This document shows positions 4,064-57,363 of a stretch of 64,000 bases of DNA, piece after piece; position 1 is the first letter of the stretch, and each line of letters starts with the position of its first letter. This stretch comes from Naegleria gruberi (taxonomy: Eukaryota), in assembly GCA_000004985.1 (NCBI GenBank), contig GG738924.1. The stretch is one strand, 5' to 3'. Under the pieces are notes generated by a model. It was not told where the DNA came from, ran no database searches, and saw nothing but the letters and a program-made list of their open reading frames with translations. Both the position numbers and the translations under genes were made by a program.

Positions 4064-4131
4064 TATCCGATGGAGATGTCTTAAGTTTTGTCTCAGCCAA
4101 AACACTTCGTCATTACTCTTCCAATGAGGCG

Positions 4132-7940: not shown

Positions 7941-7978
7941 ATATACTTAATTTTTTTGAGCATAAAATTATTTATCAA
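6911..7978 (-). CDS. Intact gag-like ORF1 of the inverted copy (355 aa)
   Basis: MVQTPSKANISNIRQRVSAS...GGGSFKQDL* is uninterrupted here. In the + copy the same protein is split into 2232..2684 and 4132..4698. Confidence 0.65.
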   Translation of the reverse strand: MINNFMLKKIKYIEMVQTPSKANISNIRQRVSASKSSTSTYKSGYIPVTDNGSSASLPSVVDPTSKTLDNNQAGSEKNLDAILNAITSLGERIKHLEAVPPVLQQANQLDEDPDEESADEDFTGKHWGLTTIKEIRRNYEVGDRLSDGDVLSFVSAKTLRHYSSNEALLNRVQVLMARFESVIHNSRNYPRLQEIQSKGLQKMMEMLHLKSKLLQFALSHPLNVTNIIEITELVFLLSEVEKIFLEEGLFESNFDVANQFIQPFIQSNTFADITEKARQKKREKSVVKHAITSKIQKPLKMKEKFQKPSSHQGGIPNSYSKPFNNYNKSGSSFQKSGDSKPKYNNNGGGSFKQDL

Positions 7979-11734: not shown

Positions 11735-12282
11735 ATGATTTTATACATTACGTTTTGAATCATTAAAACATTCGCGTACTTTGACTCTCAAACAATGTTT
11801 CAAGAAAGCTTATCAACTAGCTTTACAGATTATAGGAAACACTGGTATGTGTTTTGAAGAATAATATCTGATTGAAATAATCCTCTTTTTCTAAAGTAGT
11901 TGATTCTAGTGTTTTCTTCCAAACAATTGTCCGCCAATTAACATTTACTCAAACTGGAATCTTTTAAGGTTTTTCCAAAATACTCTTAATAAAATTAACA
12001 TCTATTTCAATGGTGGACTTGCGTTTCAGAAAAAATATGAAATTGACACACAAAAAGTTTGTGAGTGAAGGTAGTGTCGATCTACCACCTTAGATTCAAC
12101 GGTGAGCGTCTATGTTCTCCCAATTAAACTATTCACCCACAAATTTATCTATTAAACACACAGATCAAGATATGATAATAAGCACTTCCAAAAATAGATT
12201 TGGTTTTGGTTTTGATTAATTTTAAATATAACTTATTGAATTTGACGCTCTATTCAGAATAGAGTTTAGTCAGTGGATTGTT

Positions 12283-13500: not shown

Positions 13501-13520
13501 TTAAACTATTTCACTACAGT

Positions 13521-16382
13521 TTATTTAGAAACTTTGGATGACAATGAGGCAAGAGCCATTTTGGCAAGCTCTCTACACTCATTACCTCCATCATTCTCAC
13601 TAATATCCATCAACCAATCAAATACCGAATGCACCTCCACCTTCACTTCATTCAACAGAGTTTCAGATGTGCAAGAACAGAAGGAGGTATGAAGTGTATT
13701 TAGAATACTAGCTCTAAGACTATTCACTTTTTGGACATCCTTACAGTGTAGAATGAGTGTCCAACAGAATTCGATGGTATTCCTTGCCAATTCTTGTCCA
13801 ACCAATGGAGCAGGATTAGATCCACAACAATATATGAAAATTCCAATGGTGTGAATAATCTTGGAGAGAACTAAACTATCCTCACCAAACATGATGTGAA
13901 TGGTGTTAGACATTTGATTCTTTGTTCTCAGCAGCATGTAGTAGAATCGGTAGGCGTGGAGAAGAAAGTAGTTTGCCTTGGCTACCTTTTCTGTCTTTTT
14001 CTTATTTAGGGAGGAGCCCCATCTTCTAGTGTTGGCTGGATATTGAGGAGTGTAGGTGGTTTTGGAATTCTTTGTTTCGTTAGTGGAGGTTGGAGGTGTA
14101 TCTTCCTTCTTCTTTTCAGATTGAGAGATTGAAGTATTATTCGAAAGATTGAGGGCAGATTTCACAAGTACTGTCAAAATGTCAATTCTTTGAGCTTGGG
14201 TCACTTGGTTGGACCAGAATTTGTTTGTCAAGTATATTAAAACTGTTTCATCTTCAAAGTCAATAGACCTCTGATCTTGCTTATCAAATTGAAGTTCAAT
14301 TACGGATGAACATGTCTTGGTGAGAAGTGCAACCATGGCATTCATTCTATCTGTGAAATAATTATCAATGGTAGTCTCTGAACAGGTCAATAGAGCTGTA
14401 CACAAATTAACACCATTCAATTGGACCACCTTTGGATCTGCTCTTTCAATAATTGTGGTTGCATACTTGAGAGCTGCTTCAATTTTGAACATTTGATCCT
14501 TGTCTTGATCGTTGGCAAATAAAAAGTCAATTACATCCTTGATATAGTATGGTCTGTAAGGATTATTCTCGTGATCATGCTCCTCATCAGACATGTCCAA
14601 AGATTGGAGAGATTCTACTGAAGATGTATCAGAGAGATCTGCTTCTTCCTCTTCAGAGCTACTGCTCTCCTCGTCGTCATCGAGGAGTAATTGATTAGGA
14701 TTGAAAACTTTCTCCTTCTTTTTCTTATCAAGATCCTTCTTTAAATTTGATTTTGGTTCTCCAAATACATTGGGTTTCCTCTCTGAAAAATTGGTACTTG
14801 AATTCTGAATGTTAGATGTGAGCTCATCGAGACAATCCTTGTATTCTTCAAAGAGAACGAGCGGAGGTTGCTTTGGATTAATGCTCTTACTCATTTGTAG
14901 AGAAAGTAACTAGATATTGTTAAATATATATGTATGACAACTAATCAACTTACACATCCACTTTTTCTTACATAGTCAATTGAAGAATGTAATCTTTGCT
15001 GAATTCCTTCAATACAATTTTTCAAGGTATTTGAAATTTCAAACTCTTCCTTGCTCATTAGTGAAATAAGCATAGCAAGACAATACGATACATCTATTAA
15101 ATTATTCCATTATTAGAAAATGCCACATTATTAATAAAAACATACATAATTGCTGTTCCTCATTAGATTGCATAATAAAATAATGTTGTTTCCATATTGA
15201 ACTGATATAATCCGTTACTGATGAAAGGGCAATTGTTGTATTGGTACAAGCTGGTCCGATTGAATCAATTAACATCTTTACAAAAATATACTCATTCCTG
15301 TTTACAACGTGTGGTGCAAAGGCGTACTTGAAAATAAGTGCATTTGAGAATAGTTCATACCACAAAAATGATTTGAGAATCTTCTCATTGAAAAACTTGA
15401 CCAATTCTTCATACCTATCCAAACTTGGTCTACTCTTTAGAACTTTGATGATGAATGATTTTACAATATTTTCCAGTGCACTAATATTGAAACCCTTTCT
15501 ATTTTCCAATGAAGATAATACTCTGTACAATTGATGATTGGATTCTGAAAACCATTTCACAAGTATATCACAACAAATATCTCCATATCCTCTCTTGATG
15601 AATTGTAAAATGAAATTTCCAGCTATGTCAATGGAATAATTGATAATTTCCTCATCCTCAGACTCTATGGAAATTAGTGAATTGATTATGTGTGAAATAT
15701 AGATATCAGAATTGAATAGCTTTGGTAACTTCCACAATGAAGAGTTTGTTCTCATGTATTGAGATTGAGTGCTAAGCTCTCCTTTGAAAACAAGTAGATC
15801 CTCAGATGCTGATGCATGGTCCAGCAATTCTACAATTAAACTATCATTCTTTTTTGACGTAGACCCTTTCGAATCGTCTCGATTTCTATCATCACTCTTA
15901 AAATAGAGTGCACTAATCTTTTCATGAAGAGTTAAAATAATTCTAATGATGGTCTCTTGTTCAATATTGCCAGTTATTGAATTTTTCCCTCCTTCCATAC
16001 AAGATTTCACCATACTGAAATAAAAATCATTTTGTTCCATCATGGGCACCAGTAAATTATGAATAATTATTGGAAAATGCTTATGAGAAAGGACATAATC
16101 CACTAGAAAGCAAAACCTCTCCACAAAATTTGTTGCCTTTTTCTTGTACGAGTTCGACAAAATGATGTGTGGTATTATCAATTGTTTAATTTCCATATCG
16201 GAGAAGAGAGAAATGTGATCAGCAATAATTCTCACAATTTCCGAAAATGATTTTCCCTCAATTTTAAAATTACTATTTGATTCCGAGAGGAGAGAAGTAG
16301 ATGATGATGAATTCATCGAAACAACCCTTCCTAACAAATTCTTCAATTCCGAATTGATATCTTCCTTGTTGAATTGACTCAT
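13521..16382 (-). CDS. TELO2: TELO2 (Tel2) homolog, 3 exons, about 920 aa
   Basis: Exons on the minus strand are 16382..15146, 15093..14954 and 14909..13521. The introns are 52 nt (GTATGT...AATAG) and 44 nt (GTAAGT...TCTAG). The ORF track reports it as two ORFs. The C-terminal part matches human TELO2 blocks. The CK2 acidic Ser cluster plus P.Y(V/I)(R/K)D(C/V)(V/I)(E/D)(A/F)L appears here as DMSDEEHDHENNPYRPYYIKDVIDFL. GEDQLVLGRLAHTLG appears as GEDSLVLSKIIHTIG. LEFVWALRFH appears as IEFCWTLILH. Confidence 0.75.
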
Positions 16383-29661: not shown

Positions 29662-29771
29662 TTAGGTAAGGCCAAACGTGATGGGAAATTTGACACTCTG
29701 CCATAAATACATTTTTGGATGGGGATTAATATGGAACAATTACATAAGTAGCCAAGTTAAGAACTAGAATG

Positions 29772-31337
29772 TTAATGCTTTAATTCTGTCCATTCGCTGT
29801 ACCACGAACGATTAGGGAAAGCCTTCTTGTTGTCCAACATGGCTTGAATGTGTTTGTGGTTGTCCTGGACTTGAATTCTTTCATGATTAGTGGCATGTAG
29901 TGTTCTGTTTTTGGTAGTAGTATTGAGCGTCTTGTTGAATCCTTTAAACAGTGCTTTGGATCTCTTTTTCCAAAATATTTTGTATAACAGATCGGTTTGA
30001 AATGGTAAATCAAAGCTACTGTAAGTTACATGTACCACTCTGGTAAGATTGTCAGCAATTCTATTGAATAAATAGTAGCTCAGTGAAGCTGCTTTCTTGA
30101 CACGAGGTGATATTGGCATTTCCTCTTCTGGAAAATCAGCAGTATGTAAAACATGTAGTAAGAGATCAGATTCTTGAATGGTGGTTGCAACAGCACATAA
30201 CTGTCGTTTTTTGATAAGTGGCAGAGAAAGATCAACACTAATAGAAAGGCATTGTGTGGCGTATGTTGATTTACTACCCTCGCTGTAATTGTTCAATCCA
30301 CTTGGTGGTCTATAGCTTTGGAGTTTGAATCCATCTTTAGTTTGAGGATCGAATGAGGTATGGTTATCTGTATTGGAAATCATTATAATAAAGTCTTCAA
30401 GTGAAAAAGGGAGATACATAATGGCTTTCAATAGCTTCATTCCCTTCGATTCTCCAAAAAAGTAGGTTGTGTTAGATGAGTAACAACATAGATCCTTTCT
30501 CCCATAAATCAACTTCCAATCGGGCGTATCCTCTGCCAATGTGAAACCAAAATAAATGTGCTTGTCTGTAATGATCTGATCTTTTAAATCTTTTGGTTTA
30601 AATCTCATATCAGCATAATATGCTGCGGAGATGTCGTATCCAATTGATCTGGTAAAGGTTTCGCCTTTGAGTTTAAGGAAATTCAGTAGCTTTTCTGAAC
30701 GGACGAACCTTGGGAATTGGTCCATCTTTAAATCTAAATGTACAGATGACAGTACTTTTGAAAACAAAGCTTCAGGATGTAATCTTCTCATAATTTCACT
30801 TTCTATCTGTTCAGTAACCAGATTATAGTAATCAGAGGAGGTACATGACAGTCTTGTTTTACCTGGTACAGTTGAATCCAGAAACACATCAATGAGGTCT
30901 TCCTTTACATCTTTCCAATAGTTTAATACTATTGTTTGACTCGTTCCAATATTCAACTCTCGTTCACTATAATGTTCTAAGAATGTATTAATAATACTTT
31001 CTGCTCTTCCAATTACTTCAACTCTGAATAAATGATTGTGTTGCTTGGAGGAATTAGATGATTGCTTCAATGAAATTATTTGATAATCTGACCAACCTCC
31101 AAAAACTTCCTTTAAAACATGTTCATAATTGTGGCAGTATTCATTATAATGGTCAAGGAAAACTAGTGGTTCTTCATCTCTATTTTCAATTAAGAATTCA
31201 TGGAATATTCTTCTTGCTTCCTTGTTATCGAGGACGGCATCATAATCAATACAGTAATTTGTAGGATCAAAGTGTTGTGACATTTTTTGTTTGGTGAGAT
31301 AAGACATAACAGTTTGACCAAAGAATAAGAATGACAC
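29772..31337 (-). CDS. RGS-domain protein (521 aa) with an uncharacterised C-terminal domain
   Basis: The N-terminal region FHEFLIENRDEEPLVFLDHYNEY ... YSERELNIGTSQT matches the two conserved RGS blocks in the right order and spacing. RGS4 has [22 protein letters not shown] and ATKEVNLDSCTRE. The C-terminal 300 aa are unassigned. Confidence 0.55.
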   Translation of the reverse strand: MSFLFFGQTVMSYLTKQKMSQHFDPTNYCIDYDAVLDNKEARRIFHEFLIENRDEEPLVFLDHYNEYCHNYEHVLKEVFGGWSDYQIISLKQSSNSSKQHNHLFRVEVIGRAESIINTFLEHYSERELNIGTSQTIVLNYWKDVKEDLIDVFLDSTVPGKTRLSCTSSDYYNLVTEQIESEIMRRLHPEALFSKVLSSVHLDLKMDQFPRFVRSEKLLNFLKLKGETFTRSIGYDISAAYYADMRFKPKDLKDQIITDKHIYFGFTLAEDTPDWKLIYGRKDLCCYSSNTTYFFGESKGMKLLKAIMYLPFSLEDFIIMISNTDNHTSFDPQTKDGFKLQSYRPPSGLNNYSEGSKSTYATQCLSISVDLSLPLIKKRQLCAVATTIQESDLLLHVLHTADFPEEEMPISPRVKKAASLSYYLFNRIADNLTRVVHVTYSSFDLPFQTDLLYKIFWKKRSKALFKGFNKTLNTTTKNRTLHATNHERIQVQDNHKHIQAMLDNKKAFPNRSWYSEWTELKH

Positions 31338-35707: not shown

Positions 35708-36772
35708 ATGCCATTCAAAATATTCGATACTTTAGAAGTTACCATTAAAAACGGTGTTGATCTTGAAGCCGCTGACTTTAATGGCTTCAGTGATCCATAG
35801 TATGTTGTGTTAAATATTTAAAATATTGTAACGATCGATTTAGTGTCATTGTTCAAACTAAAGCTCTTGTAGATGAAAAGCTTCCTTCCTATTTGAAAGA
35901 AGCAGCCAAGGGATGGAAGCAAAAAACCTCCATCAAGAAGAAGGATTTAAATCCAACCTGGAATGAAACCAAAACTTTCCACAGTGTTTACTGTCTTGAT
36001 AAAGGTGAAGGAATTAAAGTACTTTTCAAGGTTTTTGATTGGGATATGCTCTCAAGAGATGTAAGTATTGATTGATCAAAAATGAATGTTGATTAATAAC
36101 GGTTTCGAATAATAATAGGATGCTATTGGAAAGGCAGAAATTGTTATCAATTTTGACAAGCTTGAACACAATAAGGAATATTCTGAGACTCTCAAATTAA
36201 CAGATTGTAAATCTGGTAGCTTGAACATTACCTATAAGGTTGTTAACTTTAATCAATGTAGAGTTGAATCTGGTTATCAATATCACAACTTGTTCACTCC
36301 ACCAGTTGCTGAACTTTGTGCTCCAAAAGACTTTTCTCTACTCAGTTCTAGCTCTGTTGGTGTTGCTAGTGTTGCAATCTTTGCCAACATGAAGAAGGGT
36401 TACGTTCTCTTGTCAACTCTCACCAAATTAGAATCAGGTGATTTAGATTTTGCTGCCATTGCCAAGAATATGAGTGAAGATCGTTTCCGTGAAATGAGAA
36501 AGGAATATTCCAAGGTTGATATCAAATCACGTGATGAGAATGTCAACCCAGATCCTCATTGCAAGAATAAGTTCATTACCCACATTTTGGAATTTGTTTT
36601 GAATGTTGAAAAGAAGGGATTGAAGATGATTGGTACTTTGAGAATTGTTGGACATTCTAATGGATATTTGGGTATTTATGTTTATATGGAACCACAAGAA
36701 AGCTTGTACTCTAGTGGTTCAGGTCAAACTGAATTGGCTAGAATATCCGAGAGTACTATCTTTTTGAATTAA
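35708..36772 (+). CDS. C2-domain protein, 3 exons
   Basis: Exons are 35708..35799, 35844..36060 and 36119..36772. Intron 1 is 44 nt (GTATGT...TTTAG), intron 2 is 58 nt (GTAAGT...AATAG). The spliced product MPFKIFDTLEVTIKNGVDLEAADFNGFSDPYVIVQTKALVDEKLPSYLKEAAKGWKQKTSIKKKDLNPTWNETKTF...FDWDMLSRDDAIGKAEIV... is a canonical C2 fold. Before splicing, an in-frame TAG follows SDP. A 215-aa C-terminal region follows. Confidence 0.7.
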
Positions 36773-36834
36773 TAAATTAATAGAAAATAATTGGTTCATT
36801 GCAGCAAGATTCTAAGGTTATTAAGGAAAACACT

Positions 36835-36925
36835 GGTGAGATGGTCGAGTGGTCTAAGACGACACGTTAAGGTATGATTAATACCGTGTTCCGCAAGGGC
36901 GTGGGTTCAAATCCCACTCTCATCA
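36835..36925 (+). tRNA. tRNA-Leu (anticodon AAG) with an 11-nt intron
   Basis: Class II tRNA. Acceptor GGTGAGA/TCTCATC, D arm GTCGAGTGGTCTAAGAC, anticodon stem-loop ACACG-TTAAGG-[ATGATTAATAC]-CGTGT, long variable arm TCCGCAAGGGC, T arm GTGGGTTCAAATCCCAC. TTAAGG at -14..-9. TTTT terminator. Confidence 0.65.
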
Positions 36926-37001
36926 AATTTTGCTTTAGGAATTGATTGGAAACTAATAAGGCTCTTGATATTTAATTAAATTTCGTTAATTAAGGCAAGA
37001 A

Positions 37002-37007
37002 GGGGTT

Positions 37008-37038
<31 letters not shown>

Positions 37039-37074
37039 TGCAGAAGGTCTAGGGTTCGATTCCCTATGACTCCA
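37002..37074 (+). tRNA. tRNA-Ala (anticodon UGC), copy 1
   Basis: GGGGTTATAGCTCAGTTGGTAGAGCGTCTGCTTTGCATGCAGAAGGTCTAGGGTTCGATTCCCTATGACTCCA with the G3:U70 Ala identity pair. TTAAGG at -12..-7. TTTT terminator after CCAA. Confidence 0.9.
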
Positions 37075-37496
37075 ATTTTACCCCATTCGTTGTTTTTATT
37101 GGCCAAATATGTATTATTATATTACTTATCGATTTCATACCCAATACTCTATTATTTCGATGGTTTGAGTGTCAAATCCAACCACTATGAATACTGAGAG
37201 TTGATCTTGGAGTTTTTGGAATTGTTGGAGATGACAACCTTGAACTTTTAAAAAGAAGTGAAAAGACTTGATATTGAAATATAAACATTGAATAGTTTAT
37301 TAACCACTTTTAGATTGTTATGAATTCAAAGTCAATCTATCGCTCATTTTTTTGTATACAAACATTGTAAACTCTGATTTCGATTACTTTCAACAATGAG
37401 TAATTATATTATTAGAAACGTGATTACTAAAAACAATTCAAAAAGCACGTTTCAGAAATTCCCAACAAGAAACAACTTTAAAACAAACAATTCTAA

Positions 37497-37859
37497 ATGG
37501 CAATCACCAGAATCACAGAAATTTGGGTCGTTTCCTACACTATCCAACACAGAAAAACAGAAGTTTCATCCTGTTGCGTTCTAATCCTCTGGATCATCCT
37601 TACATGCATTTCCATTCAAGCAATCTACACTGCATGCGATCAAATTCAAAACAATCCTAAAGATAAAACATTTGGTGATCCAGTTACTGCTATAATCATC
37701 TGGTCAGGGATCTTGGCAATGTTGACATGTTGTTGCTGTTCATGTTGTTGTGGGGTGGTTTGGAAATGTATTAGAAATCCAGTTTCTAATAATTTGCGTA
37801 AAAATAATGGTATGGATGAGAATGCCAACAGTGGATATTATCAGAGTGCTGAATGTTGA
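37497..37859 (+). CDS. Small cysteine-rich membrane protein (candidate ORF)
   Basis: Two hydrophobic helices with a CCCCSCCCG palmitoylation-like cluster. The start and exon structure are uncertain. A second small ORF at 37396..37584 overlaps it in another frame. Confidence 0.3.
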   Translation: MAITRITEIWVVSYTIQHRKTEVSSCCVLILWIILTCISIQAIYTACDQIQNNPKDKTFGDPVTAIIIWSGILAMLTCCCCSCCCGVVWKCIRNPVSNNLRKNNGMDENANSGYYQSAEC

Positions 37860-38308
37860 AGAGGGAAGTTTCGAATGAAAATTGTAAATATACTGTATTC
37901 CAAAAACTAATAAATAAAATTCTAATAAAATAGATCAATTCATAACTGAGGAGTGTTCTACTCATTGGCGAATATTACAAGTTTCCACAATGAAAGAATA
38001 AAAGTTCTTAAAACTAAAAACTTTGCCAAAAATAAATTATAAATTGTTAATATTTCTTCATTCTCATCAAATACTTTTTCAAGATGATCCTCCTTATCAG
38101 CTTTGGAATTTCCTTTAATGAGAGGAAGAACAACTGTTTTCAATGAAGCCGTTCCAGAAATTTTTTGGTTGATGGGCACTCAATATGATCTAATGGTAAC
38201 ATGTATTGTTTTGGAGCATTTTTCTTTCTTTTAGTATTCTACTTGCAATACTTGCAAGAAGACTAAGGCTATAAATGAACTCATTTATAAATCCTAATTA
38301 AGGAAAGA

Positions 38309-38315
38309 AGGGGTT

Positions 38316-38346
<31 letters not shown>

Positions 38347-38381
38347 TGCAGAAGGTCTAGGGTTCGATTCCCTATGACTCC
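38309..38381 (+). tRNA. tRNA-Ala (anticodon UGC), copy 2
   Basis: Identical to the 73-nt copy 1. Shares the upstream ATTAAGGMAAGAA and the downstream CCAATTTT flank. Confidence 0.9.
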
Positions 38382-38514
38382 AATTTTGGTCCCATTAGTT
38401 ATTTTTTATTGAGGCATGCAAGAAGAACATATGGGAAGCGTAATTGGATTGTGGGCTGATTTCACAATCTTAAAAAATCCACAACACAACTGACTCAACA
38501 CTTCACAGGATACA

Positions 38515-39243
38515 ATGAATGGATCTCTCATCAGTAACACCCAGACAATAAAATCCTCCTCTCAATACGCAACACCAAAGAAGATATCCAAAGACACTGA
38601 AGTAAAATGTGAGTTACTGTTTTTATTACCAAATCTTATTCAATGATCTTCTTTTCGGTATTCAATCGTTATTATCTTTGTTCATCACACTTCTAAATTA
38701 CTATTATGAACAGTCTGTAAAGGATACATGAACAAGTTGGGAGCCATTGATACTTGTACAGCAAATATTGGAGGAAATATCATGGTTAGGCAAATTCAGA
38801 AACATCACACTCTCAATCTGATGGCTGTGACAAAAACCGTCGATACTTCTCCGCCTTGGTCATATAGACAGCATCAGTCACCCAAAACCAATACCATTCA
38901 GCAAGTAAATATGATGAGAGCCTCCTTAAATACTACAAGTCCACTAGCAAAGCAAAAATCGTCTAGCAATTTTGAAAAGCTGGATTTAAAGTAGGTTTTC
39001 CAATTGAATCTTATCTCATACTGTTATTTATTGATCAATAGTAAGGAAAATATGATTGATATTGAACAGGAGTTGGACGAACATGATCAGATCATTTACA
39101 AAAACTTTATGGAAATGTTGTCAAAGAGAAAATGTTTTGCAGATGCTCAAATATTGGCAACAATTGCATTGGGAAAGGTTGAAGAAGAATGGGCAGAAAA
39201 ACAACAAATTCCACCATCACAACATGAAGAAATAAATTCGTAA
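38515..39243 (+). CDS. Lineage-specific protein P1, 3 exons, 190 aa, downstream of tRNA-Ala copy 2
   Basis: Exons 38515..38608, 38714..38990, 39042..39243. Intron 1 is 105 nt (GTGAGT...AACAG), intron 2 is 51 nt (GTAGGT...AATAG). The product is MNGSLISNTQ...FCKGYMNKLGAIDTCTANIGGNIMVRQIQKHH...KLDLNKENMIDIEQELDEHDQIIYKNFMEMLSKRKCFADAQILATIALG... It is a paralog of P2. The ORF track shows only fragments. Confidence 0.55.
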
Positions 39244-39295
39244 ACTCTAAGATGGTTAATGCATATATTGATCGATTTTAATATTAAGGCAAGAA

Positions 39296-39301
39296 GGGGT
39301 T

Positions 39302-39332
<31 letters not shown>

Positions 39333-39368
39333 TGCAGAAGGTCTAGGGTTCGATTCCCTATGACTCCA
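39296..39368 (+). tRNA. tRNA-Ala (anticodon UGC), copy 3
   Basis: Identical 73-nt sequence. Upstream ATTAAGGCAAGAA. TTTTTTT terminator. Confidence 0.9.
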
Positions 39369-39645
39369 ATTTTTTTGTTCCGTGAGTACACTCGAATTGT
39401 ATTCTTAATTAACTCTCTTATTCTGAAATAACATTTCAACAATGGTAATGCTTTCTACGTCAATCCAAGGCATTGAGATTTTGTTAAAAGAGAGACGCGA
39501 ACAGTTGATTTAATGGTAATAATCGATTCAGTGGAGAAAGACATTCCAAACATAACGGAAAAAGTTTACGATTTTGTAGTTGGTAGTTTTAAGGGCAACA
39601 ACGATAAAACAGGAGATAGAGAAAATAAAATACAAATAGAAACAA

Positions 39646-43694: not shown

Positions 43695-44534
43695 TTACAC
43701 CTTTGCTCCATAGTACTCACTGCTCAACCTTTCTTGATAAAATTCTTCTGAAAATTCAAGGTAGAAACCATTTGATCTTACAGCTTCTAACTGGACTTGC
43801 TTGTTCATTTTCAAGATAAAAGGAAGATATTTCAAAGCTAGACCATTCTGTTGTACTGCCATCATTGCTAGCTCTTCTGAAATCAAGTTGTCTTCAATAT
43901 TGCAAACCACCAAACCATTGGTAGAGATCGCCTCTCTGATGAAACTTTCGTCATACTGGTGAGGATTGTTCCAAAAAGTTGCATTATTATATTTGATCAG
44001 TTCCAAATACATGTATCTATCTTCCCAACATGAAAATTCTGGAATAAAAAAGTTAATACGTCCACCTTTAGCAGCATACAAAACAATTTCCTTATCCAAT
44101 CTCAAGTTAAGTGAAAGACATTTGTAATTATGTGGATTCGTTTTCATAATGTGGAGTGCTAACTCTCTATCATTTCGTAAATCGCTCGACAAATAATCAA
44201 CAATAAAACATTGTTCATCCATTTTCTGCTCACAAAGTTCAAATATGAAATCTCTCTCGCTCAATATCGTATTTCTGGTGGAATGGAATTGTTCTGGAAG
44301 CTTTTCCAACATGGAAGGTTTTTTCAAGAGTGCAATTTTGAGAATTTCATCATCCATATAGTTAGCATAATGAACAGAATAGGGATTATGTTTAACTGCC
44401 TCTAATATAACCTCCCTGTCACATTTCAATAGATCTGATGCATATCTAAGGCATGATTGACCAGACACTAGTGGTTTATCGCATCTTACAGCCAGTAAAA
44501 CTATTTCTCTATCATTTTTCATTTCTCCACTCAA
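43695..44534 (-). CDS. DUF4116-repeat protein, 3' portion (279 aa)
   Basis: Repeated units of the type NDREIVLLAVR...L.Y.S..LK.DREVILEAVKHN. Its first 72 codons are about 99% identical at the nucleotide level to the last 72 codons before the assembly gap in the 46035..47055 ORF. Confidence 0.5.
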   Translation of the reverse strand: MSGEMKNDREIVLLAVRCDKPLVSGQSCLRYASDLLKCDREVILEAVKHNPYSVHYANYMDDEILKIALLKKPSMLEKLPEQFHSTRNTILSERDFIFELCEQKMDEQCFIVDYLSSDLRNDRELALHIMKTNPHNYKCLSLNLRLDKEIVLYAAKGGRINFFIPEFSCWEDRYMYLELIKYNNATFWNNPHQYDESFIREAISTNGLVVCNIEDNLISEELAMMAVQQNGLALKYLPFILKMNKQVQLEAVRSNGFYLEFSEEFYQERLSSEYYGAKV

Positions 44535-45984
44535 ATATTGAGGTCATTCAAAAATTAAGTGTTTTTCAACACAAGCAATACACAAATTTTTTTAGTGGTA
44601 ATTGGATTCATTTTTGTTTGTGTTGTGTGTTTGTGTTTTGGCCATTAAAATTACACATACAATACATATTTTTATTCATCGATATCCATGAGATCTGCGA
44701 GAATTAATTTAGTCTTCACTGCGTATTGGGTATTCGTTTAAATAAATATTCGTTAAAATTGCACAAACCAACACAATTACTGGTTGACAACTAATGGAAT
44801 GCCTAAAAAGTTTTGCTAATATTTGAAATCGCTTTAGAAATGCATTTGTGATTTCAATTATAACTCTTTCATATTTCTGTTCATAATTTAGGTAAGATCC
44901 ATCACTCATAGGTTCAATCAGTTTTCCAGGAATTGAGTTGACCGAAAATCCACTGTCAACATTAACTTTGAATTTTGGATTCTTTTGTACTGCTTTATGA
45001 AGTCCAGATAATTTTAAAACAGTGTTATCATTCATTGAACCTCTAAAACCAATACTAATATGTGCTATTATTCCTGTTCTGTAAGTGGTAATTTGTGTGA
45101 TTAGGTCATGTCTTTTATCTTTTCGGTAATTTAAATGTTGAAGATAATTTGTTCTTGAATGTTTGAAGTGTGTAAATAAAGATTTATATCCTTTAAAGCA
45201 GGTTCCAAGGTTGATTCACCATATGGTGTCTCAATCCTTGAGCTTTTAATCCATTTGTCTTAATTTATTATTTTATTATTTTGTGGTTTTAAAAACATGT
45301 GTTAGATTAGTATTTAACAAAGGATGAGTTAATAAATTATCATCATGTAATTTGATAGTTTGACTTGTTATGTTAGTAGCAATATTAGTTAAAATATGAG
45401 GCAAATCAATACTTAATGTTGATAAACTAATACCAAACATTAAACTAATCCAAGTATTAGCAACACCACCCTTTAAATACATTAAAGCAGCTAATAATCA
45501 ATCTTCATTACTTAAAAGTCTTCTTTCTTTCTGTTATTAAATGATTTATGCTTTGATTAATTTAAATTGTGATATTGTTACTCCTGTCAAAGATAAGAAC
45601 AATCCTTTATCTTATTGAAGAACGGAAGTATTGATTCTTTGTATTCTATTTGTTGAAAATCAATGTGAATCTATTAAACCTTCTTTTTGTAGTGTAAATA
45701 GGATCAAATATTAAAGGAGGTGGAATATTAATTAAGTTTAAAATATTATATATTAATTCAAGTTCAGAATTACTGCAACTTGTTATTAGTAATTGTTCTT
45801 TTATAATTAGTAATAGTTTGTTTTGTTTTTGAGAAGATGAAGAATAATTTCTTCCGATAATGGTGTACCATTAATTGGAGGAGGATTTAAAATATCTTGT
45901 GTAACATTTAACAAGTCCTCCAGTATTTGTTGTGTCGAAGGTGATGGTAGTTGTGTCATTTTTTTTCCATTTAGATTTTTTAAT

Positions 45985-46034
45985 NNNNNNNNNNNNNNNN
46001 NNNNNNNNNNNNNNNNNNNNNNNNNNNNNNNNNN
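45985..46034. other. Assembly gap (50 N)
   Basis: Run of N in the sequence. ORF 45807..46076 in the track is translated through it and is an artefact. Confidence 0.95.
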
Positions 46035-47055
46035 AGAGCGCAATTTTGAGAATTTCATCATCCATATAGTTAGCATAATGAACAGAATAGGGATTATGTT
46101 TAACTGCCTCTAATATAACCTCCCTGTCACATTTCAATAGATCTGATGCATATCTAAGGCATGATTGACCAGATACTAGTGGTTTATCGCATCTTACAGC
46201 CAGTAAAACTATTTCTCTATCATTTTTCATTTCTCCACTCAAATATTCCAAGCACATACTATTTGATTTCAAAGCGAGGAAAACAATTTCTCTATCCAAT
46301 CTAAACTCGGATGGAGTTTTTGCTATTATATTTCCATTTCGTTTAACAGCTTCTATCACAATATCCCTGTCAGTTGACCATCTTTTTTCTAAATCTCTCA
46401 ATACCAAACCATCAACCCTGACTGCTTTTAAAATCATTTCCCTATCATTCTTCAGATCATTATTTGCAAAATTTAATGAAAACCCATTGTACTTCACACA
46501 TTCTTCTATTATTAATCTATCACTTCTCACTTTCTCAGTTGCCAACTCTAAGAGAAGTAAAACATTCTTTTCTACCAATCCCTCAAATTTAACAATCTCT
46601 AAAAAGTGCTTTTTATCATCAAATACAGCTCTCATTGATGGATAATATGTCATCAATCTATTTAATATATCTTCTTCTAACAAATGTGCATGACTCTTTA
46701 GGAAATTGGCCACAAATTTCGTGTCATTCATTGTATTTTCCAAAGCCAATACTTGCTTTGAATCCACTCTATCGGTCCACAATAAATATTCCAAAGCAAT
46801 ATCAACATCCAACTTTAACATTGGATCAATCATTTCATAAACCATTTGAGGATTATTCTTCATATTTTCAATGATGAATGATTTATCTTTGGCATATTCT
46901 ATGGGAAAATATTCGTATGATTTTTCCATTCGAACAAACCATAACAGTTTGCCAAATTGTTGGCTTTCAAATTTGAATTTTAAATATTGGAAAGTTGGTT
47001 GAGTGGTGATGGGACGATCCGTAAGAATAATTGTAACTGGTTCTAACTCTGACAT
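46035..47055 (-). CDS. DUF4116-repeat protein, 5' portion (ORF runs into the assembly gap)
   Basis: An N-terminal 190-aa unique region, then DUF4116-type repeats (NDREMILKAVRVDGLVL, TDRDIVIEAVKRNGNII, LDREIVFLALKSNSMCLEYLS, NDREIVLLAVR...). The last 215 nt before the gap duplicate 44320-44534. Confidence 0.5.
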
Positions 47056-51893: not shown

Positions 51894-53037
51894 ATGTCAA
51901 CACAAGAACAAGCAGATAAATGGTTTGAAACTAATATGGATGTTTGGTATGATGCCATTGTCGATCTAACATTTAGGTGAGTTGATCTATTATTCTTCTA
52001 TTATTTAATTTGGTTATCATATTATAGAACAAGAATGATATCTCTTTCGGAGGAGCAAATTATGGCCATCATTCTCGATAATGAATATTTCAATGGTGAA
52101 TGCAATCAGGAAGTGTTGGAAACAAGTGGTATTGATATCGTGTCGAGTTTAAATTCCGACACAAGGCGAACAGTATTGGAAACGTTAGAAATTGATGTAA
52201 ATAGAGAGATGAAAGAATTATCTTGTTGTAATGATGAAGGATGTTTTATTAAATTGAGCTGTAGATCTCCGAAGGATGCCTTTGCTGTATGTGCAAAGAT
52301 GAAGGAGTTATTCAATGACAAGATTGAGAAAATTGTAATGGAAAAGAAAGGAGTTTTAGCAACTCCCAATGAAAGGTTGATAGCTGTCAACGAATCATTT
52401 ATACAATCAATGAAGGTGAAGGATTTTGCTGAAGAGTACACATATTTTACCAAGTCAGCAAGAGTATTGGAAGATTTACTGTTATTTCTCAAATATGATA
52501 AGAAGCAACGAGAAGAAAATCCTATCAAGATTATCATTAGAGAGTGGGTTGATATTCCTTCAAAATATGAATTCAGATCATTTGTGAAAAACAAACAATT
52601 GACAGCCATCTCTCAATATTTTGACACTTGTTCTATCCAGATTTGGTTGCAGAGGAAGATTTAATTAAGGAAAAAAACTATACGACTTTTTCACAAACCA
52701 AGTTGCTCATCGAGTTCCCCTAAATGATTACATTTGTGATTTTGCAATTGATTCGAATGGAAGAGTTTACATTGTTGAATTGAATCCATTCTCCACAACA
52801 ACTGATGCATGTCTCTTCAGTGTAAGTTGACTTTAATTCTTGAAAATTTATTTACTAAAATACTTACAATGAAAATAATAGTGGACAAAGGATGGTGAAA
52901 TTTTGAATGGAATACAAATCAAGAATGAAACAAATCAATTGGATCAGATCGAGTTTAGACTCAAAAAGGAAGTTGAAAAGCATTTGAAACATCAAATCAT
53001 TTCAGTGTGGGTTCCTTTTGTCATTCCATCCCAATAA
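51894..53037 (+). CDS. CDC123: CDC123 / D123-family protein, at least 4 exons, with one unresolved frame problem
   Basis: Exon 1 is 51894..51976 and intron 1 is 51977..52027 (GTGAGT...TATAG). Exon 2 starts at 52028 and contains the family motif KLSCRSPKDA. The last intron is 52822..52881 (GTAAGT...AATAG) and the final exon is 52882..53037 (...LFSWTKDGEIL...). Between about 52640 and 52678 the reading frame changes twice around TAA and TGA stops and an A7 run. No GT-AG intron of the right phase fits. See findings. Confidence 0.6.
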
Positions 53038-53146
53038 ATATTTTACAATTTCCAATAATTGAATTGTAAACTATTACCCAAACACAACCATCAACTTACT
53101 TTCTAATTGATTTCCACCATTCATTGAGAAAAATCAATGAAAAAAA

Positions 53147-54316
53147 ATGGGAAATTGGATCGCTAAAACATTTTCCACTTTTTCTACGAGAATCAATAAT
53201 TATTATGATTATGATGATAATGCAGAGAATGGTCGTGATGATGAGCAAACAAAAGGCCATAGAATAATTTGCGATTTATTTCGTGATTACGATCTTGATT
53301 GGGTGATTCCGAATAGTGATGATAATTCCGATATTGATGATCAATATTATCATCAATTAGTTTATAATGAAGAGAATATTGGAGTGTTGGAAGAAAAACT
53401 GCCGTGTGAAATCATTGTTTGCATTTTGACTTTTTTGCCTTTTGAAAGTTTAGTAAAACTTGGCAGAGTTTCGAGGAATTTTAGAAATTACTGGATAGAA
53501 TTGCCACAATTATGGAAATCGAGAAGTGATTCTAAAATAATTTCAGAATGTATGATGCCTTTTTGTCCTGTTTTTTCGAAAATTAATCCAGTGATGAATT
53601 CTCTATTCTTTCAAAAGTCAATGAAAGTCAAAATTAATAATTCATTTGTATATTCTGAAATACGGGAAGCAACGGATTTGAGTAGAATACCAATCGTAAT
53701 ACTGTATGTTTTTGTGGAATATTCAATTACTAACTCTTGGGGTCCTTCGATTAGATTTGTTGGTTTGGATAAATGTGGAAAATCGCAACTCATATCCAAA
53801 GCAATGAAACGAGAGAATTTCACAGATTTTTATATTCCTACTATTGGATTAGATACCTGCTCTTGTAGATATCGATATCAAAACAAATTGTTTCATTTCA
53901 ATACATGGGATACGAGTGGTCAGGAAAGATTTAAATTTGTCAACTCTACACTTCACTCGAAAGCAAAAATTAATTGTTTTTGCTTTAGTTTGAATGATTA
54001 TTCATCTTTTGAAAGGTGTAAGGAAAATTATAACGATTGGAAAAAAAGGAATGCTAATTACAAAGTTATGGAATATTTGGAAAATCATAATGGATGTGTT
54101 TTAATACTTGGATTGAAATCTGATCTAGAGCAGAAGGTTCCATCGCAGGAAATTAAAGAACTTCTATTGGTTGAACCGGCCAACTGCAGGTTATATTCGA
54201 ATAGAGTACAATATTTTGCGCTAAGCTCCAAGAATGATACATTTGAAGATTTGATGATACCATTCCTTTATGCTAGGTCAATAACAGAACAACCACAATT
54301 CTTCAATAATTATTAA
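53147..54316 (+). CDS. N-myristoylatable F-box + Ras-like small GTPase domain protein (389 aa)
   Basis: MGNWIAK (Gly2). F-box LPCEIIVCILTFLPFESLVKLGRVSRNFRNYW. GTPase motifs G1 GLDKCGKS, G2 PTIG, G3 WDTSGQE, G4 LGLKSD, G5 SSK. Confidence 0.6.
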   Translation: MGNWIAKTFSTFSTRINNYYDYDDNAENGRDDEQTKGHRIICDLFRDYDLDWVIPNSDDNSDIDDQYYHQLVYNEENIGVLEEKLPCEIIVCILTFLPFESLVKLGRVSRNFRNYWIELPQLWKSRSDSKIISECMMPFCPVFSKINPVMNSLFFQKSMKVKINNSFVYSEIREATDLSRIPIVILYVFVEYSITNSWGPSIRFVGLDKCGKSQLISKAMKRENFTDFYIPTIGLDTCSCRYRYQNKLFHFNTWDTSGQERFKFVNSTLHSKAKINCFCFSLNDYSSFERCKENYNDWKKRNANYKVMEYLENHNGCVLILGLKSDLEQKVPSQEIKELLLVEPANCRLYSNRVQYFALSSKNDTFEDLMIPFLYARSITEQPQFFNNY

Positions 54317-55429: not shown

Positions 55430-56650
55430 AGTGAAATAGTTTAATTTATTTTGTTATTAATATTTCTCACGTATTACTAAGAATCTGTTAACAAATTCAG
55501 TTAATTTACAAGGTTTTGATGATTGGCTTTGATGGCTTTTTACATGTCTTTCTCTTGATACAAATCTTCTTCTTGATTGACTTGCAACACTTTTTCTTTC
55601 CACCAACTAATTTGAATTTCTTACAAATCTTCTTTCCCTTTGAACGTTTCAAACACTTCTTATAATACTTCTTCTTGATACATCTTGGTGGAATGACAAT
55701 TGACTTGGCACAATACTTCTTCTTGTTATATTTCACACATTTGGAAATAGTCTTCTTGTGTTTACAGAACTTGATAGTCTTATGTTTGGCACAGAAGAAT
55801 TTCTTCTTAATGAGACAACATTTCTTAATGGATTTTCTCTCCTTACAATATTTAACCTTCTTATACTTGGCACATTTCTTTGCCCATGAAACAATCTTGC
55901 ACTTTTTAACATATCTACATTTGGCAATCTTCTTATTATAGGAATCAACAGTATACTTATCACAGACTTTCTTCTTTTCACACTTCTTGATTGGAACCTT
56001 CTTGAATTTCTTACAGATCTTCTTGCAACCCTTCTTGACACACTTGTTGACAATCTTGTGTTTGGCACAGAATTTCTTGAAACCCTTCTTAATACAAATC
56101 TTCTTAGTTCCATAAGAATCACAAACTTTCCAATACTTCTTCTTGGCACATCCAACAGTCTTGTATGCATGCAAGACACACTTCTTTGTTGCCTTACTGT
56201 ACTTGTCACATTTGGAATATTTCTTATGTTTGAGACATTTACCAGCACCGACAATTGCATATTGATCACAGACCTTCTTTTGACCGACGAGTTTGTGTTT
56301 CAAACACTTCTTAATCCACTTGTGCTTTAAGCATTTTCTCTTACAAATTCTTGGTTTGTGATACTTGTCAACTACGACAACTGGAGGTTTGGTTTGATAG
56401 CTGTCACTTGCTTGAACTGAGAGGATTGCAAGTAAAAGTAGAATTGCAATTGAAAAGATTAGATTTGTTTTCATTTTTTTGTTGGATAGTAAAGTTCAAA
56501 CACATGGTGCTAATTTAAACCATTTCGAATAGTTTTTCATTTGGAACAAACTCAAAAAGTTAGATGTAAGGTTCCAAATTTGGATGGAAATCTGATTTCC
56601 CTAATGAAACCTTCACTGATTCAATCTACTAATTTACTTTTCAAATATCA
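55430..56650. repeat. Arm B of the 1.2-kb inverted segmental duplication (partner 12283..13500)
   Basis: Reverse-complement match to arm A including both gene flanks. Divergence starts at about 12283/56650 and about 13500/55430. Confidence 0.8.
55506..56474 (-). CDS. Secreted polybasic cysteine-repeat protein, copy B (322 aa)
   Basis: About 97% identical to copy A. Differences are PVVVVDKYHK vs PVVDKYHK, a few K/R/I/V substitutions, and a C-terminus ...CKKPSKPIIKTL. Confidence 0.7.
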   Translation of the reverse strand: MKTNLIFSIAILLLLAILSVQASDSYQTKPPVVVVDKYHKPRICKRKCLKHKWIKKCLKHKLVGQKKVCDQYAIVGAGKCLKHKKYSKCDKYSKATKKCVLHAYKTVGCAKKKYWKVCDSYGTKKICIKKGFKKFCAKHKIVNKCVKKGCKKICKKFKKVPIKKCEKKKVCDKYTVDSYNKKIAKCRYVKKCKIVSWAKKCAKYKKVKYCKERKSIKKCCLIKKKFFCAKHKTIKFCKHKKTISKCVKYNKKKYCAKSIVIPPRCIKKKYYKKCLKRSKGKKICKKFKLVGGKKKCCKSIKKKICIKRKTCKKPSKPIIKTL

Positions 56651-57363
56651 ACTCATATTTCAAATTTAAATAATGTTATATGATTCGTACATTACAATTA
56701 ATTCAAGTTCTTCTTTCACTTTCAAGGTTTAATGCCTTCTTTTGTGTTTCTATTGAATGAGTAATTCATTAAAAATCTTTGGACTCATTCTATGACGTCA
56801 AATATTAATTGACAAGCATTACTTGTTTCTGTGAAAATCACTCGAATATTCACAATACTTCCAATAAGACCAAATCACATGCTTCTTCAGTTGTTGCTAT
56901 TGAAAGTCATGTTTCGTCTGCAAAGAATTGCGACAAGTGCTCGAATGATGATGAAGAGAAAGTTTTGGCAACTCATCGCTGCAAGCAATGTAATTCGTTT
57001 GATTTGTTTTCAAATTGTGAAAGACAATTATTTACAAAAAAAGGATGATGTGCGTAGACAGAAAAAATTGTAATTTGTAATATTGAAAGCAATTTTCACG
57101 TTTCAACCAGTCAGTTATGAGAATTCCATTGAAAAGCTTAAAAAAAAATGACAACCAACAAACCTGTTAGATTTTTCAGTGGCCAAGTCATTGTTACCAA
57201 GAGAACCAATCAATACTTTGAAGTATTTGATTCAGTCTGTGATCAGAAAGCAGACACAGAAACTATGCAAACAGATCAATACAATTATTACATATTTGTT
57301 GCAGTGTTGGCAGATGGAGTGTACAAGTAAAGAATAGAGTAAAGGTGAATGATGTAATCCTAG

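What the first reader, a model, noticed from the sequence alone, without database searches (positions are those of the whole stretch)
53147..54316. Unusual domain fusion: myristoylatable F-box plus Ras-like small GTPase
One ORF encodes an N-terminal MG... start (Gly2, candidate myristoylation), a clear F-box and a complete small-GTPase domain (GxxxxGKS, DTSGQE, LKSD, SSK). An F-box-GTPase would couple a nucleotide switch to an SCF ubiquitin ligase. I do not know this architecture as a described family.
Basis: partly seen in the sequence, partly recalled or inferred. Interest (0 to 1): 0.5.

Follow-up and report, generated by a model that had tools for sequence, protein, structure and literature searches.

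The report
Naegleria F-box Rab-like GTPase gene
This is a real Naegleria gruberi gene that fuses an F-box (a ubiquitin-ligase docking module) to a Rab-like GTPase, but this architecture, and this very gene, were already catalogued in the supplement of a 2021 Naegleria genomics paper, so it is interesting biology without being a new discovery.

Summary
ORF 53147..54316 (+, 389 aa) starts MGN, has an F-box at residues 84-125 and a complete Ras-superfamily G domain at about 201-383. Pfam scores pass the curated cut-offs, and the AlphaFold model matches Rab, Ras and Rho structures.

The window is Naegleria gruberi NEG-M. RefSeq annotates only the last 170 residues (XP_002669601.1, "rab family small GTPase").

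The claim of an undescribed architecture fails. Herman et al. 2021 (PMC8296547, Additional files 4 and 10) describe Naegleria-specific Rab-like clades with N-terminal F-boxes. They list this gene with the identical corrected 389-aa sequence, annotated "Rab / F-box". Trypanosome TbFRP (FYVE + F-box + GTPase) is an earlier F-box-GTPase.

What I add:
- The family is found only in Naegleria and Willaertia.
- Gly2 is conserved and there is no C-terminal prenylation cysteine, so N-myristoylation is the likely membrane anchor.
- G4 is LKxD or MKxD rather than NKxD. The catalytic Gln survives only in this paralogue.
- A probable in-frame 51-nt intron (53704..53754) sits just before the P-loop and is retained in the published model.

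The most likely mechanism, which is inferred, is a membrane-tethered SCF substrate receptor whose substrate binding depends on the nucleotide state, analogous to Rab40-CRL5 and RhoBTB-CUL3.

The parts
53147..54316 (+). Complete CDS (389 codons plus TAA) of the F-box/Rab-like GTPase gene. It is the same locus as XP_002669601.1 / EFC36857.1.
   Evidence: ORF list. The 389-aa sequence is identical to the corrected model in Herman 2021 Table S8.
53804..54316 (+). The part annotated in RefSeq/GenBank: a 170-aa truncated model starting at Met220, which lacks the F-box and the P-loop.
   Evidence: P0008 (170 aa) is 100% identical to residues 220-389. It is named 'rab family small GTPase [Naegleria gruberi]'.
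53147..53167 (+). N-terminal MGNWIAK, a candidate N-myristoylation signal on Gly2.
   Evidence: It fits the PS00008 pattern. MG is conserved in 15 of 17 family members with intact N-termini.
53168..53395 (+). Variable, acidic N-terminal region (residues 8-83), predicted disordered.
   Evidence: pLDDT is mostly below 55. The region is poorly aligned in the family.
53396..53521 (+). F-box (residues 84-125: KLPCEIIVCILTFLPFESLVKLGRVSRNFRNYWIELPQLWKS).
   Evidence: Pfam F-box-like E 8.2e-7 and F-box E 6.3e-6, both above the gathering cut-offs. Three short helices at 87-95, 99-108 and 110-115. 19 of 20 family members hit the F-box models.
53522..53703 (+). Family-conserved linker (residues 126-186) containing a long helix at 148-166 and a short strand at 167-170.
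   Evidence: Conserved columns in alignment A1. pLDDT is 77-87 for residues 150-170.
53704..53754 (+). Candidate in-frame 51-nt spliceosomal intron, GTATGTTT...TACTAAC...TTAG. Unspliced, it encodes residues 187-203 (YVFVEYSITNSWGPSIR).
   Evidence: Signals and counts. The insertion is unique to this protein among 20 relatives. The family HMM scores 272.0 bits with the segment removed and 264.0 bits with it. pLDDT is below 50 for 186-198. Splicing itself is not shown.
53747..54295 (+). Rab-like G domain (residues 201-383).
   Evidence: Pfam Ras E 2.2e-19. PDB sequence hits to Rab1, Ypt6 and Rab9. AF2 pLDDT 85-95. Foldseek target-normalised TM-scores 0.75-0.81 to Rab, Ras and Rho.
53762..53785 (+). 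G1 / P-loop, GLDKCGKS.
   Evidence: G206, G211 and K212 are invariant in the family.
53909..53926 (+). G3 / switch II, DTSGQE, with the catalytic Gln259.
   Evidence: Among the 20 sequences aligned, the Gln is present only in this paralogue.
54113..54124 (+). G4, LKSD. The family-typical [LMT]Kx[DE] replaces NKxD.
54224..54232 (+). G5, SSK (canonical SAK).

Best explanation
This is a genuine, intact protein-coding gene of Naegleria gruberi. It belongs to a Naegleria/Willaertia-specific, expanded family of divergent Rab-like GTPases that carry an N-terminal F-box.

Shown here:
- One ORF encodes Gly2, a disordered acidic stretch, an F-box, a conserved helical linker and a complete G domain.
- The residues needed for guanine-nucleotide binding are present: P-loop GK[ST], switch-I Thr, DxxG, K and D of G4, and S-x-K of G5.
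- Unusually for the family, the catalytic Gln is also present.
- There is no C-terminal prenylation cysteine.

Inferred mechanism:
1. The protein is N-myristoylated on Gly2 and so tethered to a membrane.
2. The F-box docks it onto Skp1-Cul1-Rbx1.
3. The GTPase domain takes the place that WD40, LRR or Kelch domains hold in ordinary F-box proteins.
4. 'Effector' proteins that bind the switch regions in the GTP state are therefore presented to the SCF ligase and ubiquitinated locally.

This would be the SCF/CUL1 counterpart of Rab40-SOCS-CUL5 and RhoBTB-CUL3.

The mature mRNA probably lacks the 51 nt at 53704..53754, giving a 372-aa protein with the same architecture.
For: Identity and architecture:
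- Pfam, PDB sequence hits, AF2 and Foldseek.
- Organism and annotation.

Family:
- phmmer finds full-length relatives of 320-400 aa in N. gruberi, N. lovaniensis, N. fowleri, Willaertia magna and unnamed environmental contigs.
- 20 of 20 hit Pfam Ras and 19 of 20 hit F-box.
- Motif table.

Published description:
- The same architecture, and the proposal of 'GTPase-dependent ubiquitination', appear in PMC8296547 Additional file 4. This gene is in its Table S8.

Membrane anchor:
- Gly2 is conserved in 15 of 17 intact N-termini.
- No CaaX, CC or CxC motif is present.

Precedent for a Rab acting as a cullin-RING substrate receptor:
- Rab40b/c-CUL5 (PMC8129794, PMC9070665).

Intron:
- GTATGT and TACTAAC lie 25 nt apart. 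TACTAAC occurs only 3 times and GTATGT 20 times in 128 kb (both strands), so about 0.01 such pairs are expected by chance.
- Probable introns elsewhere in the window are 52-136 nt with GTAAGT or GTATGT donors. Two other ACTAAC sites in the window follow a donor like a branch site.
- The 17-aa segment is a unique insertion.
- Removing it raises the family-HMM score by 8 bits and removes the low-confidence loop.
Against: - No experiment or expression data were available. Skp1 binding, myristoylation, GTP binding or hydrolysis, and splicing are all untested.
- The G4 Asn is replaced by Leu across the family, and most paralogues lack the catalytic Gln. The family may therefore be locked in one state or use atypical nucleotide handling rather than acting as a classical switch.
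- Herman et al. note birth-and-death evolution with pseudogenes in these clades.
- No syntenic orthologue was found. The closest relative, from N. lovaniensis, is 42% identical and sits in a different gene neighbourhood.
- The F-box scores are modest (26-29 bits).
Confidence: 0.5

Rival explanations
1. The F-box does not recruit substrates. Instead it makes the GTPase itself a short-lived SCF client through auto-ubiquitination or self-turnover, so the amount of this Rab-like switch is set by proteolysis.
For: This role was proposed for the F-box of TbFRP, which is rapidly processed and turned over (PMC3593210). From my own knowledge, RhoBTB2 is itself a CUL3 substrate, and F-box proteins commonly auto-ubiquitinate.
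Against: Dozens of paralogues with divergent switch regions but a conserved F-box and linker fit a diversified recognition module better than a simple degron. Self-turnover and substrate presentation are not mutually exclusive.
Confidence: 0.22
2. The F-box binds Skp1 in a non-SCF complex without a cullin and acts in membrane traffic, as yeast Rcy1-Skp1 does in endosome-Golgi recycling with Ypt31/32 and Ypt6. The protein would then be a trafficking Rab-like switch with a Skp1 adaptor and not a ligase subunit.
For: The best sequence matches of the G domain are trafficking Rabs: Rab1, Ypt6, Ypt31/32, Rab9 and Rab6. A predicted lipid anchor points to membranes. The Rcy1 precedent comes from my own knowledge.
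Against: Nothing in the data specifically favours a cullin-free complex. The family lacks the Rab C-terminal prenylation site and has weak RabF motifs, so it is not a standard trafficking Rab.
Confidence: 0.12
3. The locus is a decaying or non-functional copy in a birth-and-death family, and the architecture is a relic.
For: Herman et al. report disrupted members in these clades. RefSeq called only a 170-aa fragment. No close orthologue or conserved synteny was found. There is an unusual 17-aa insertion before the P-loop.
Against: The 389-codon frame is uninterrupted in AT-rich DNA. All G motifs and the F-box consensus are intact. The gene is not flagged as a pseudogene in Table S8. The insertion carries full splice signals and is probably an intron.
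Confidence: 0.08
4. The fusion is an artefact: two separate genes or exons, an F-box gene and a Rab gene, were read through as one ORF.
For: The RefSeq model contains only the GTPase C-terminal part. An intron-like element lies between the two domains.
Against: No stop codon occurs between the domains. The candidate intron is in frame. The same colinear architecture recurs in about 20 relatives from four species, including the single-exon N. lovaniensis gene at L001 5001-6074. The RefSeq start at Met220 would delete the P-loop and cannot yield a functional GTPase.
Confidence: 0.03

Closest known systems
Naegleria F-box Rab-like GTPase clades (Herman et al. 2021, BMC Biol 19:142, Additional files 4 and 10)
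   Same: This is that family. The locus is listed as 'Rab, XP_002669601.1*, F-box' with the identical 389-aa corrected sequence. Relatives P0010, P0012, P0013, P0015, P0016, P0056 and others are in the same table.
   Different: Nothing differs in architecture. Three points are not discussed there. First, Gly2 is conserved, which makes myristoylation the likely anchor for the subgroup without CaaX. Second, G4 and the catalytic Gln deviate from the canonical pattern. Third, the curated model may retain a 51-nt in-frame intron.
TbFRP / euglenozoan FRP (FYVE + F-box + Ras-like GTPase; PMC3593210)
   Same: The order is the same: a membrane-targeting element, then an F-box, then a linker of about 80-100 aa, then a divergent Rab-like G domain lacking the catalytic Gln. 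Both occur in Discoba. Euglena FRP has the same GLKxD form of G4.
   Different: FRP has a FYVE domain and this protein has none. The kinetoplastid G domains have lost G4 and G5. FRPs score only 40-45 bits against the Naegleria family HMM, whereas ordinary Rabs score 87-124 bits. Common origin is therefore unproven. The FRP authors found no Naegleria orthologue.
Rab40 (Rab GTPase + SOCS box, substrate receptor of CUL5 ligase; PMC8129794, PMC9070665)
   Same: A Rab-type G domain is fused to a cullin-RING adaptor box. The proposed logic is the same: Rab-bound partners are ubiquitinated locally.
   Different: Rab40 has a SOCS box C-terminal to the G domain, uses ElonginB/C-CUL5 and is C-terminally prenylated. 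Here the F-box is N-terminal, the partner is Skp1-CUL1, an N-terminal acyl anchor is predicted, and no SOCS box is detected. The two fusions are independent.
RhoBTB (Rho GTPase + tandem BTB, CUL3 adaptor)
   Same: A Ras-superfamily G domain is fused to a cullin-adaptor domain. RhoBTB is also present in Naegleria.
   Different: It has BTB domains rather than an F-box, a Rho-type rather than Rab-like G domain, and the opposite domain order.

Membership tests
Ras-superfamily small GTPase (G domain) | G1 GxxxxGK[ST], switch-I Thr, G3 DxxG, G4 [NT]KxD, G5 SAK-like | tested here: met
   GLDKCGKS, PTIG (Thr232), DTSGQE, LKSD and SSK are present. G4 has Leu in place of Asn or Thr, but the Lys and Asp are kept. 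Pfam Ras E 2.2e-19.
Ras-superfamily small GTPase (G domain) | Six-stranded sheet and five-helix Ras fold | tested here: met
   The AF2 G domain has pLDDT 85-95. Foldseek against the PDB gives target-normalised TM-scores of 0.75-0.81 to Rab9, Rab6, KRas and HRas.
Ras-superfamily small GTPase (G domain) | Actual GTP/GDP binding and hydrolysis | not testable with these tools
   This needs recombinant protein and nucleotide-binding and GTPase assays.
Bona fide Rab family | C-terminal Cys prenylation motif (CC, CxC, CCxx or CaaX) | tested here: not met
   The protein ends ...EQPQFFNNY with no C-terminal Cys. The same holds for nearly all of the 20 relatives. It is therefore Rab-like and not a canonical Rab.
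Bona fide Rab family | RabF motifs (IGVDF, KLQIWDTAGQE, RFRSIT, YYRGA, LVYDIT) | tested here: inconclusive
   By eye, IGLDT, FNTWDTSGQE and RFKFVN resemble the motifs, while LHSKA and FCFSLN are divergent. The best PDB sequence hits are Rab1, Ypt6 and Rab9 at only E 1e-9 to 1e-8.
F-box proteins | F-box motif of about 40-50 aa (LPxE-hydrophobic heptads, three helices) | tested here: met
   PF12937 scores 29.1 bits (cut-off 24.3) and PF00646 scores 26.3 bits (cut-off 20.5) at residues 84-125. Helices lie at 87-95, 99-108 and 110-115. 19 of 20 relatives also hit.
F-box proteins | Binding to Skp1 and assembly into SCF | not testable with these tools
   No complex prediction or interaction data were available.
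Naegleria F-box/Rab-like clades (Herman 2021) | Listed member, with a conserved N-terminal extension containing an F-box upstream of a divergent Rab-like domain, and restricted to Heterolobosea | tested here: met
   The sequence and accession match Table S8 exactly. All named relatives come from Naegleria spp. or Willaertia.
N-myristoylated proteins | Met1-Gly2 with a small or uncharged residue at position 3 and Ser/Thr/Ala/Gly/Cys/Asn at position 6 | tested here: met
   MGNWIAK fits PS00008. Gly2 is present in 15 of 17 intact family N-termini, and 9 of the 20 aligned sequences, this one included, fit the full pattern.
N-myristoylated proteins | Modification by N-myristoyltransferase in vivo | not testable with these tools
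   This needs metabolic labelling or mass spectrometry.
Euglenozoan FRP | N-terminal FYVE domain | tested here: not met
   There is no FYVE hit at E<=1. None of the 20 relatives shows one.
Euglenozoan FRP | Specific sequence relationship of the F-box + G-domain module | tested here: inconclusive
   FRPs align colinearly but weakly (40-45 bits) to the family HMM, and canonical Rabs score higher (87-124 bits). The FRP sequences were taken from an OCR-read alignment.
Rab40 | SOCS box C-terminal to the Rab domain | tested here: not met
   There is no SOCS-box hit. Only about 6 residues follow the last helix.
RhoBTB | BTB domains | tested here: not met
   There is no BTB hit.

The most novel reading that the evidence does not exclude
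The family could be a large, rapidly diversifying set of membrane-anchored (myristoylated) SCF substrate receptors whose substrate binding depends on the nucleotide state. That would be a third, independent coupling of a small-GTPase switch to a cullin-RING ligase, after Rab40-CUL5 and RhoBTB-CUL3. It might share ancestry with euglenozoan FRP, which would make F-box-GTPases an ancient invention of Discoba. None of this has been tested experimentally, and the myristoyl anchor and the possible link to FRP have not been pointed out in print as far as I could find.
Probability: 0.3. Interest if true: 0.55.

Novelty: already known. Interest (0 to 1): 0.3.

Why it matters
If these proteins really are GTP-gated SCF receptors, Naegleria would have dozens of switches that turn local ubiquitination on and off at membranes. 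That regulatory layer is known elsewhere only from a few Rab40 and RhoBTB proteins. It could bear on amoeboid sensing, on phagocytosis and on differences between N. gruberi and the pathogen N. fowleri.

On the practical side, the RefSeq model of this locus is badly truncated at 170 aa, with no P-loop and no F-box. Even the published manual correction may carry a retained intron. Anyone using these sequences for phylogeny or expression work should know both points.

As a discovery, the value is limited, because the architecture and this gene are already catalogued.

Tried and rejected
- **Word-index homology search.** Run with the single protein and with the family alignment, it returned almost nothing, missing even known relatives, so it gave no taxonomic breadth. 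The exhaustive phmmer search did the job.
- **Exact look-ups.** The 389-aa protein and two neighbouring proteins were not found in the contig index, so no N. gruberi gene-model coordinates were obtained.
- **Synteny with N. lovaniensis.** There is none around the closest relative, so orthology could not be established.
- **Homology to TbFRP.** I rebuilt three FRP sequences from the paper's supplementary alignment and scored them against the family HMM. The result is inconclusive, since canonical Rabs score higher.
- **AF2 with and without the 17-aa segment.** Both versions fold equally well: mean pLDDT 71.5 and 72.9, pTM 0.72 and 0.65. This is not decisive for the intron.
- **Literature searches.** Searches for Naegleria splice-signal descriptions and for Naegleria Skp1/cullin gave nothing usable. 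A search for other descriptions of heterolobosean F-box Rabs found none beyond Herman 2021.
- **Rejected readings.** I rejected a second family member in the window, a gene-fusion artefact and a different fold for the C-terminal half.

Full report
**What is in the sequence**

The + strand carries an uninterrupted 389-codon ORF at 53147..54316. Its ATG is the first possible in-frame start after a stop codon.

The ORF lies between two other genes:
- Upstream is a CDC123/D123 gene on the same strand. Its first exon ORF is 52035..52664 (Pfam D123). By my reading it has a 60-nt intron at 52822..52881 and a stop at 53035..53037.
- Downstream is a convergent minus-strand ORF ending at 54349.

There is therefore little room for additional exons.

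**Domain content**

Pfam reports:
- F-box-like (PF12937) at residues 84-125, E 8.2e-7, 29.1 bits against a cut-off of 24.3.
- F-box (PF00646), E 6.3e-6, 26.3 bits against a cut-off of 20.5.
- Ras (PF00071) at residues 204-363, E 2.2e-19, with weaker Roc and Arf hits on the same stretch.

phmmer against PDB sequences gives Rab1A, Ypt6, Rab1B, Ypt31 and Rab9 as best hits, at E 1e-9 to 1e-8.

An AlphaFold2 model built on a 20-sequence family alignment has these features:
- pLDDT of about 85-95 over residues 201-383.
- Three short F-box helices (87-95, 99-108, 110-115) at pLDDT 73-80.
- A confident linker helix at 148-166.
- A disordered N-terminal 60 residues or so.

Foldseek against the PDB returns GTP-bound Rab9, Rab6, RhoA, KRas and HRas with target-normalised TM-scores of 0.75-0.81.

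**Where the window comes from, and how the gene is annotated**

Five neighbouring ORFs are identical to Naegleria gruberi NEG-M proteins from one 196,593-bp scaffold: EFC36896-98, EFC36855 and EFC36858.

The exact 389-aa protein is not in the sequence collections. An exhaustive phmmer search finds a 170-aa protein that is 100% identical to residues 220-389. That protein is EFC36857.1 / XP_002669601.1, 'rab family small GTPase'.

The public model therefore starts at an internal Met. It lacks both the F-box and the P-loop.

**The family**

The phmmer search finds full-length relatives of 320-400 aa that cover both domains. The closest are P0009 (42% identity, residues 38-387) and P0010 to P0017, with others further down the list.

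All the relatives that carry a source name come from N. gruberi, N. lovaniensis, N. fowleri or Willaertia magna. The remainder are unnamed environmental contigs.

- In a 20-sequence alignment, all 20 hit Pfam Ras. 19 hit F-box, and the exception is N-terminally truncated.
- Two 930-950-aa Naegleria proteins carry the same F-box + Ras pair further along the chain.
- N. lovaniensis has two family members within 5 kb of each other.
- The locus holding the closest relative is not syntenic with this window.

**Prior description**

The supplement of Herman et al. 2021 (PMC8296547, Additional file 4) reports the following:
- The F-box is the most frequent extra domain on Naegleria Ras-superfamily GTPases (Rab, Rho, Ran, G-alpha).
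- This points to 'GTPase-dependent ubiquitination'.

Their Table S8 lists this locus as 'Rab ... XP_002669601.1* ... F-box'. The manually corrected sequence is letter-for-letter the 389-aa ORF found here, and it is not flagged as a pseudogene.

Earlier still, TbFRP of trypanosomes and other Euglenozoa was described as FYVE + F-box + Ras-like GTPase (PMC3593210). The architecture is therefore not new, and neither is this gene's corrected model.

**What this analysis adds: membrane anchor**

- Gly2 is present in 15 of 17 family members with intact N-termini.
- 9 of the 20 aligned sequences, including this protein, fit the full PROSITE myristoylation pattern.
- The protein and its relatives lack any C-terminal CaaX, CC or CxC motif.

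N-myristoylation, and not Rab-style prenylation, is thus the likely anchor. The word 'myristoyl' does not occur in the 2021 supplements.

**What this analysis adds: G motifs**

- The P-loop, the switch-I Thr, DxxG and S-x-K are conserved.
- G4 is systematically [L/M/T]Kx[D/E] in place of NKxD.
- The catalytic Gln of switch II is replaced in every relative examined, but it is retained here as Gln259.

This paralogue may therefore still hydrolyse GTP, while most of its relatives may not.

**What this analysis adds: a probable retained intron**

The element at 53704..53754 reads GTATGTTTTTGTGGAATATTCAATTACTAACTCTTGGGGTCCTTCGATTAG. It is 51 nt long and in frame, and it has a consensus donor, a TACTAAC branch site and a TAG acceptor.

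- **Chance expectation.** In the 128 kb of both strands, TACTAAC occurs 3 times and GTATGT 20 times. About 0.01 such pairs are expected by chance (my arithmetic).
- **Comparable introns.** Introns inferred elsewhere in the window from frame continuity are 52-136 nt long with GTAAGT or GTATGT donors. Examples are 15094..15145 on the minus strand, 36061..36118 and 52822..52881.
- **Branch sites.** Two other ACTAAC sites in the window follow a donor like a branch site.
- **Protein comparison.** The encoded 17 residues (187-203) form an insertion found in none of the 19 relatives.
- **Model scores.** Removing the segment raises the score against a family HMM built without this protein from 264.0 to 272.0 bits. 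It also aligns IPIVILFVGLDKCGKS with the family's beta-1/P-loop.
- **Structure prediction.** In the AF2 model residues 186-198 have pLDDT below 50. In the model without the segment, the low-confidence stretch is gone and beta-1 has pLDDT of about 92.

I put the probability that this is a real intron at about 0.6-0.7. Either way the reading frame, and so the fusion, is preserved.

**Mechanism**

Shown here are the domain content, the fold, the motif integrity and the family conservation. Inferred from the established roles of the domains:
- The F-box binds Skp1 and brings the protein into an SCF(Cul1) ligase.
- The G domain sits where other F-box proteins have their substrate-binding domain.
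- Switch-dependent partners would then be ubiquitinated, probably at a membrane set by the acyl anchor.

The best-studied parallels are Rab40b/c, whose SOCS box recruits CUL5 to ubiquitinate Rab40-bound proteins (PMC8129794, PMC9070665), and RhoBTB-CUL3 (my own knowledge).

The rival readings are self-turnover of the GTPase, as proposed for TbFRP; a cullin-free Skp1 complex like yeast Rcy1 (my own knowledge); a decaying gene copy; and a read-through artefact. The last is essentially excluded by the recurrence of the same colinear architecture in about 20 genes of four species, including a single-exon N. lovaniensis gene.

**Relation to FRP**

I rebuilt the Euglena, T. brucei and Bodo FRP sequences from the supplementary alignment of PMC3593210.

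- They align colinearly with the Naegleria family HMM, but at only 40-45 bits. Ordinary Rabs score 87-124 bits on the G-domain part.
- Euglena FRP shares the GLKxD form of G4.
- The FRP authors reported no Naegleria orthologue.

Common ancestry within Discoba is possible but not supported by this test.

**Verdict**

- The claim of novelty fails, because the architecture and this gene's corrected model are already published.
- The remaining value is modest. It lies in the annotation problems (a truncated RefSeq model and a probable retained intron in the curated model) and in the myristoylation and G-motif observations.
- The functional hypothesis remains untested.

Noticed in passing
window 4064-7545 (with 2240-2641 / 7542-7943): This looks like a DIRS-like retroelement. 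It has 872-bp inverted repeats (4064-4935 and 6674-7545, 99.3% identical). These flank an ORF (4568-6553) with a reverse-transcriptase domain and a Dam-like methyltransferase domain, in a region of raised GC (39%). A further 402-bp inverted copy lies at 2240-2641.
   Followed up: partly
window 12281-13515 and 55430-56664: A 1.24-kb inverted duplication at 96.2% identity, about 42 kb apart. Each copy carries an ORF of 322-332 aa with no Pfam hit (12441-13439 on + and 55506-56474 on -).
   Followed up: partly
window 36834-39373: Three tRNA-Ala(TGC) genes (37002, 38310, 39296) sit in short repeated units 94-100% identical. An odd 93-nt tRNA-like call with an undetermined anticodon lies at 36834-36926.
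   Followed up: no
window 28275-31274: Two diverged tandem paralogues on the minus strand, 74% DNA identity over about 1.35 kb. One of them (29772-31337) has an RGS domain.
   Followed up: no
window 53137-53163: A short out-of-frame upstream ORF (ATGAAAAAAAATGGGAAATTGGATCGCTAA, 9 codons with the stop) overlaps the main ATG of the F-box GTPase gene. Its significance is unknown (read).
   Followed up: no
window 45871-47055 and 44327-44539 / 46035-46247: A DUF4116-repeat protein gene (Pfam E 4.9e-51). A 213-bp segment of it is duplicated 1.7 kb away at 99% identity.
   Followed up: no
L001 5001-6074 and 10845-11074+: N. lovaniensis carries two F-box/Ras family genes within 5 kb on contig PYSW02000003.1, which suggests local tandem expansion of the family.
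   Followed up: no
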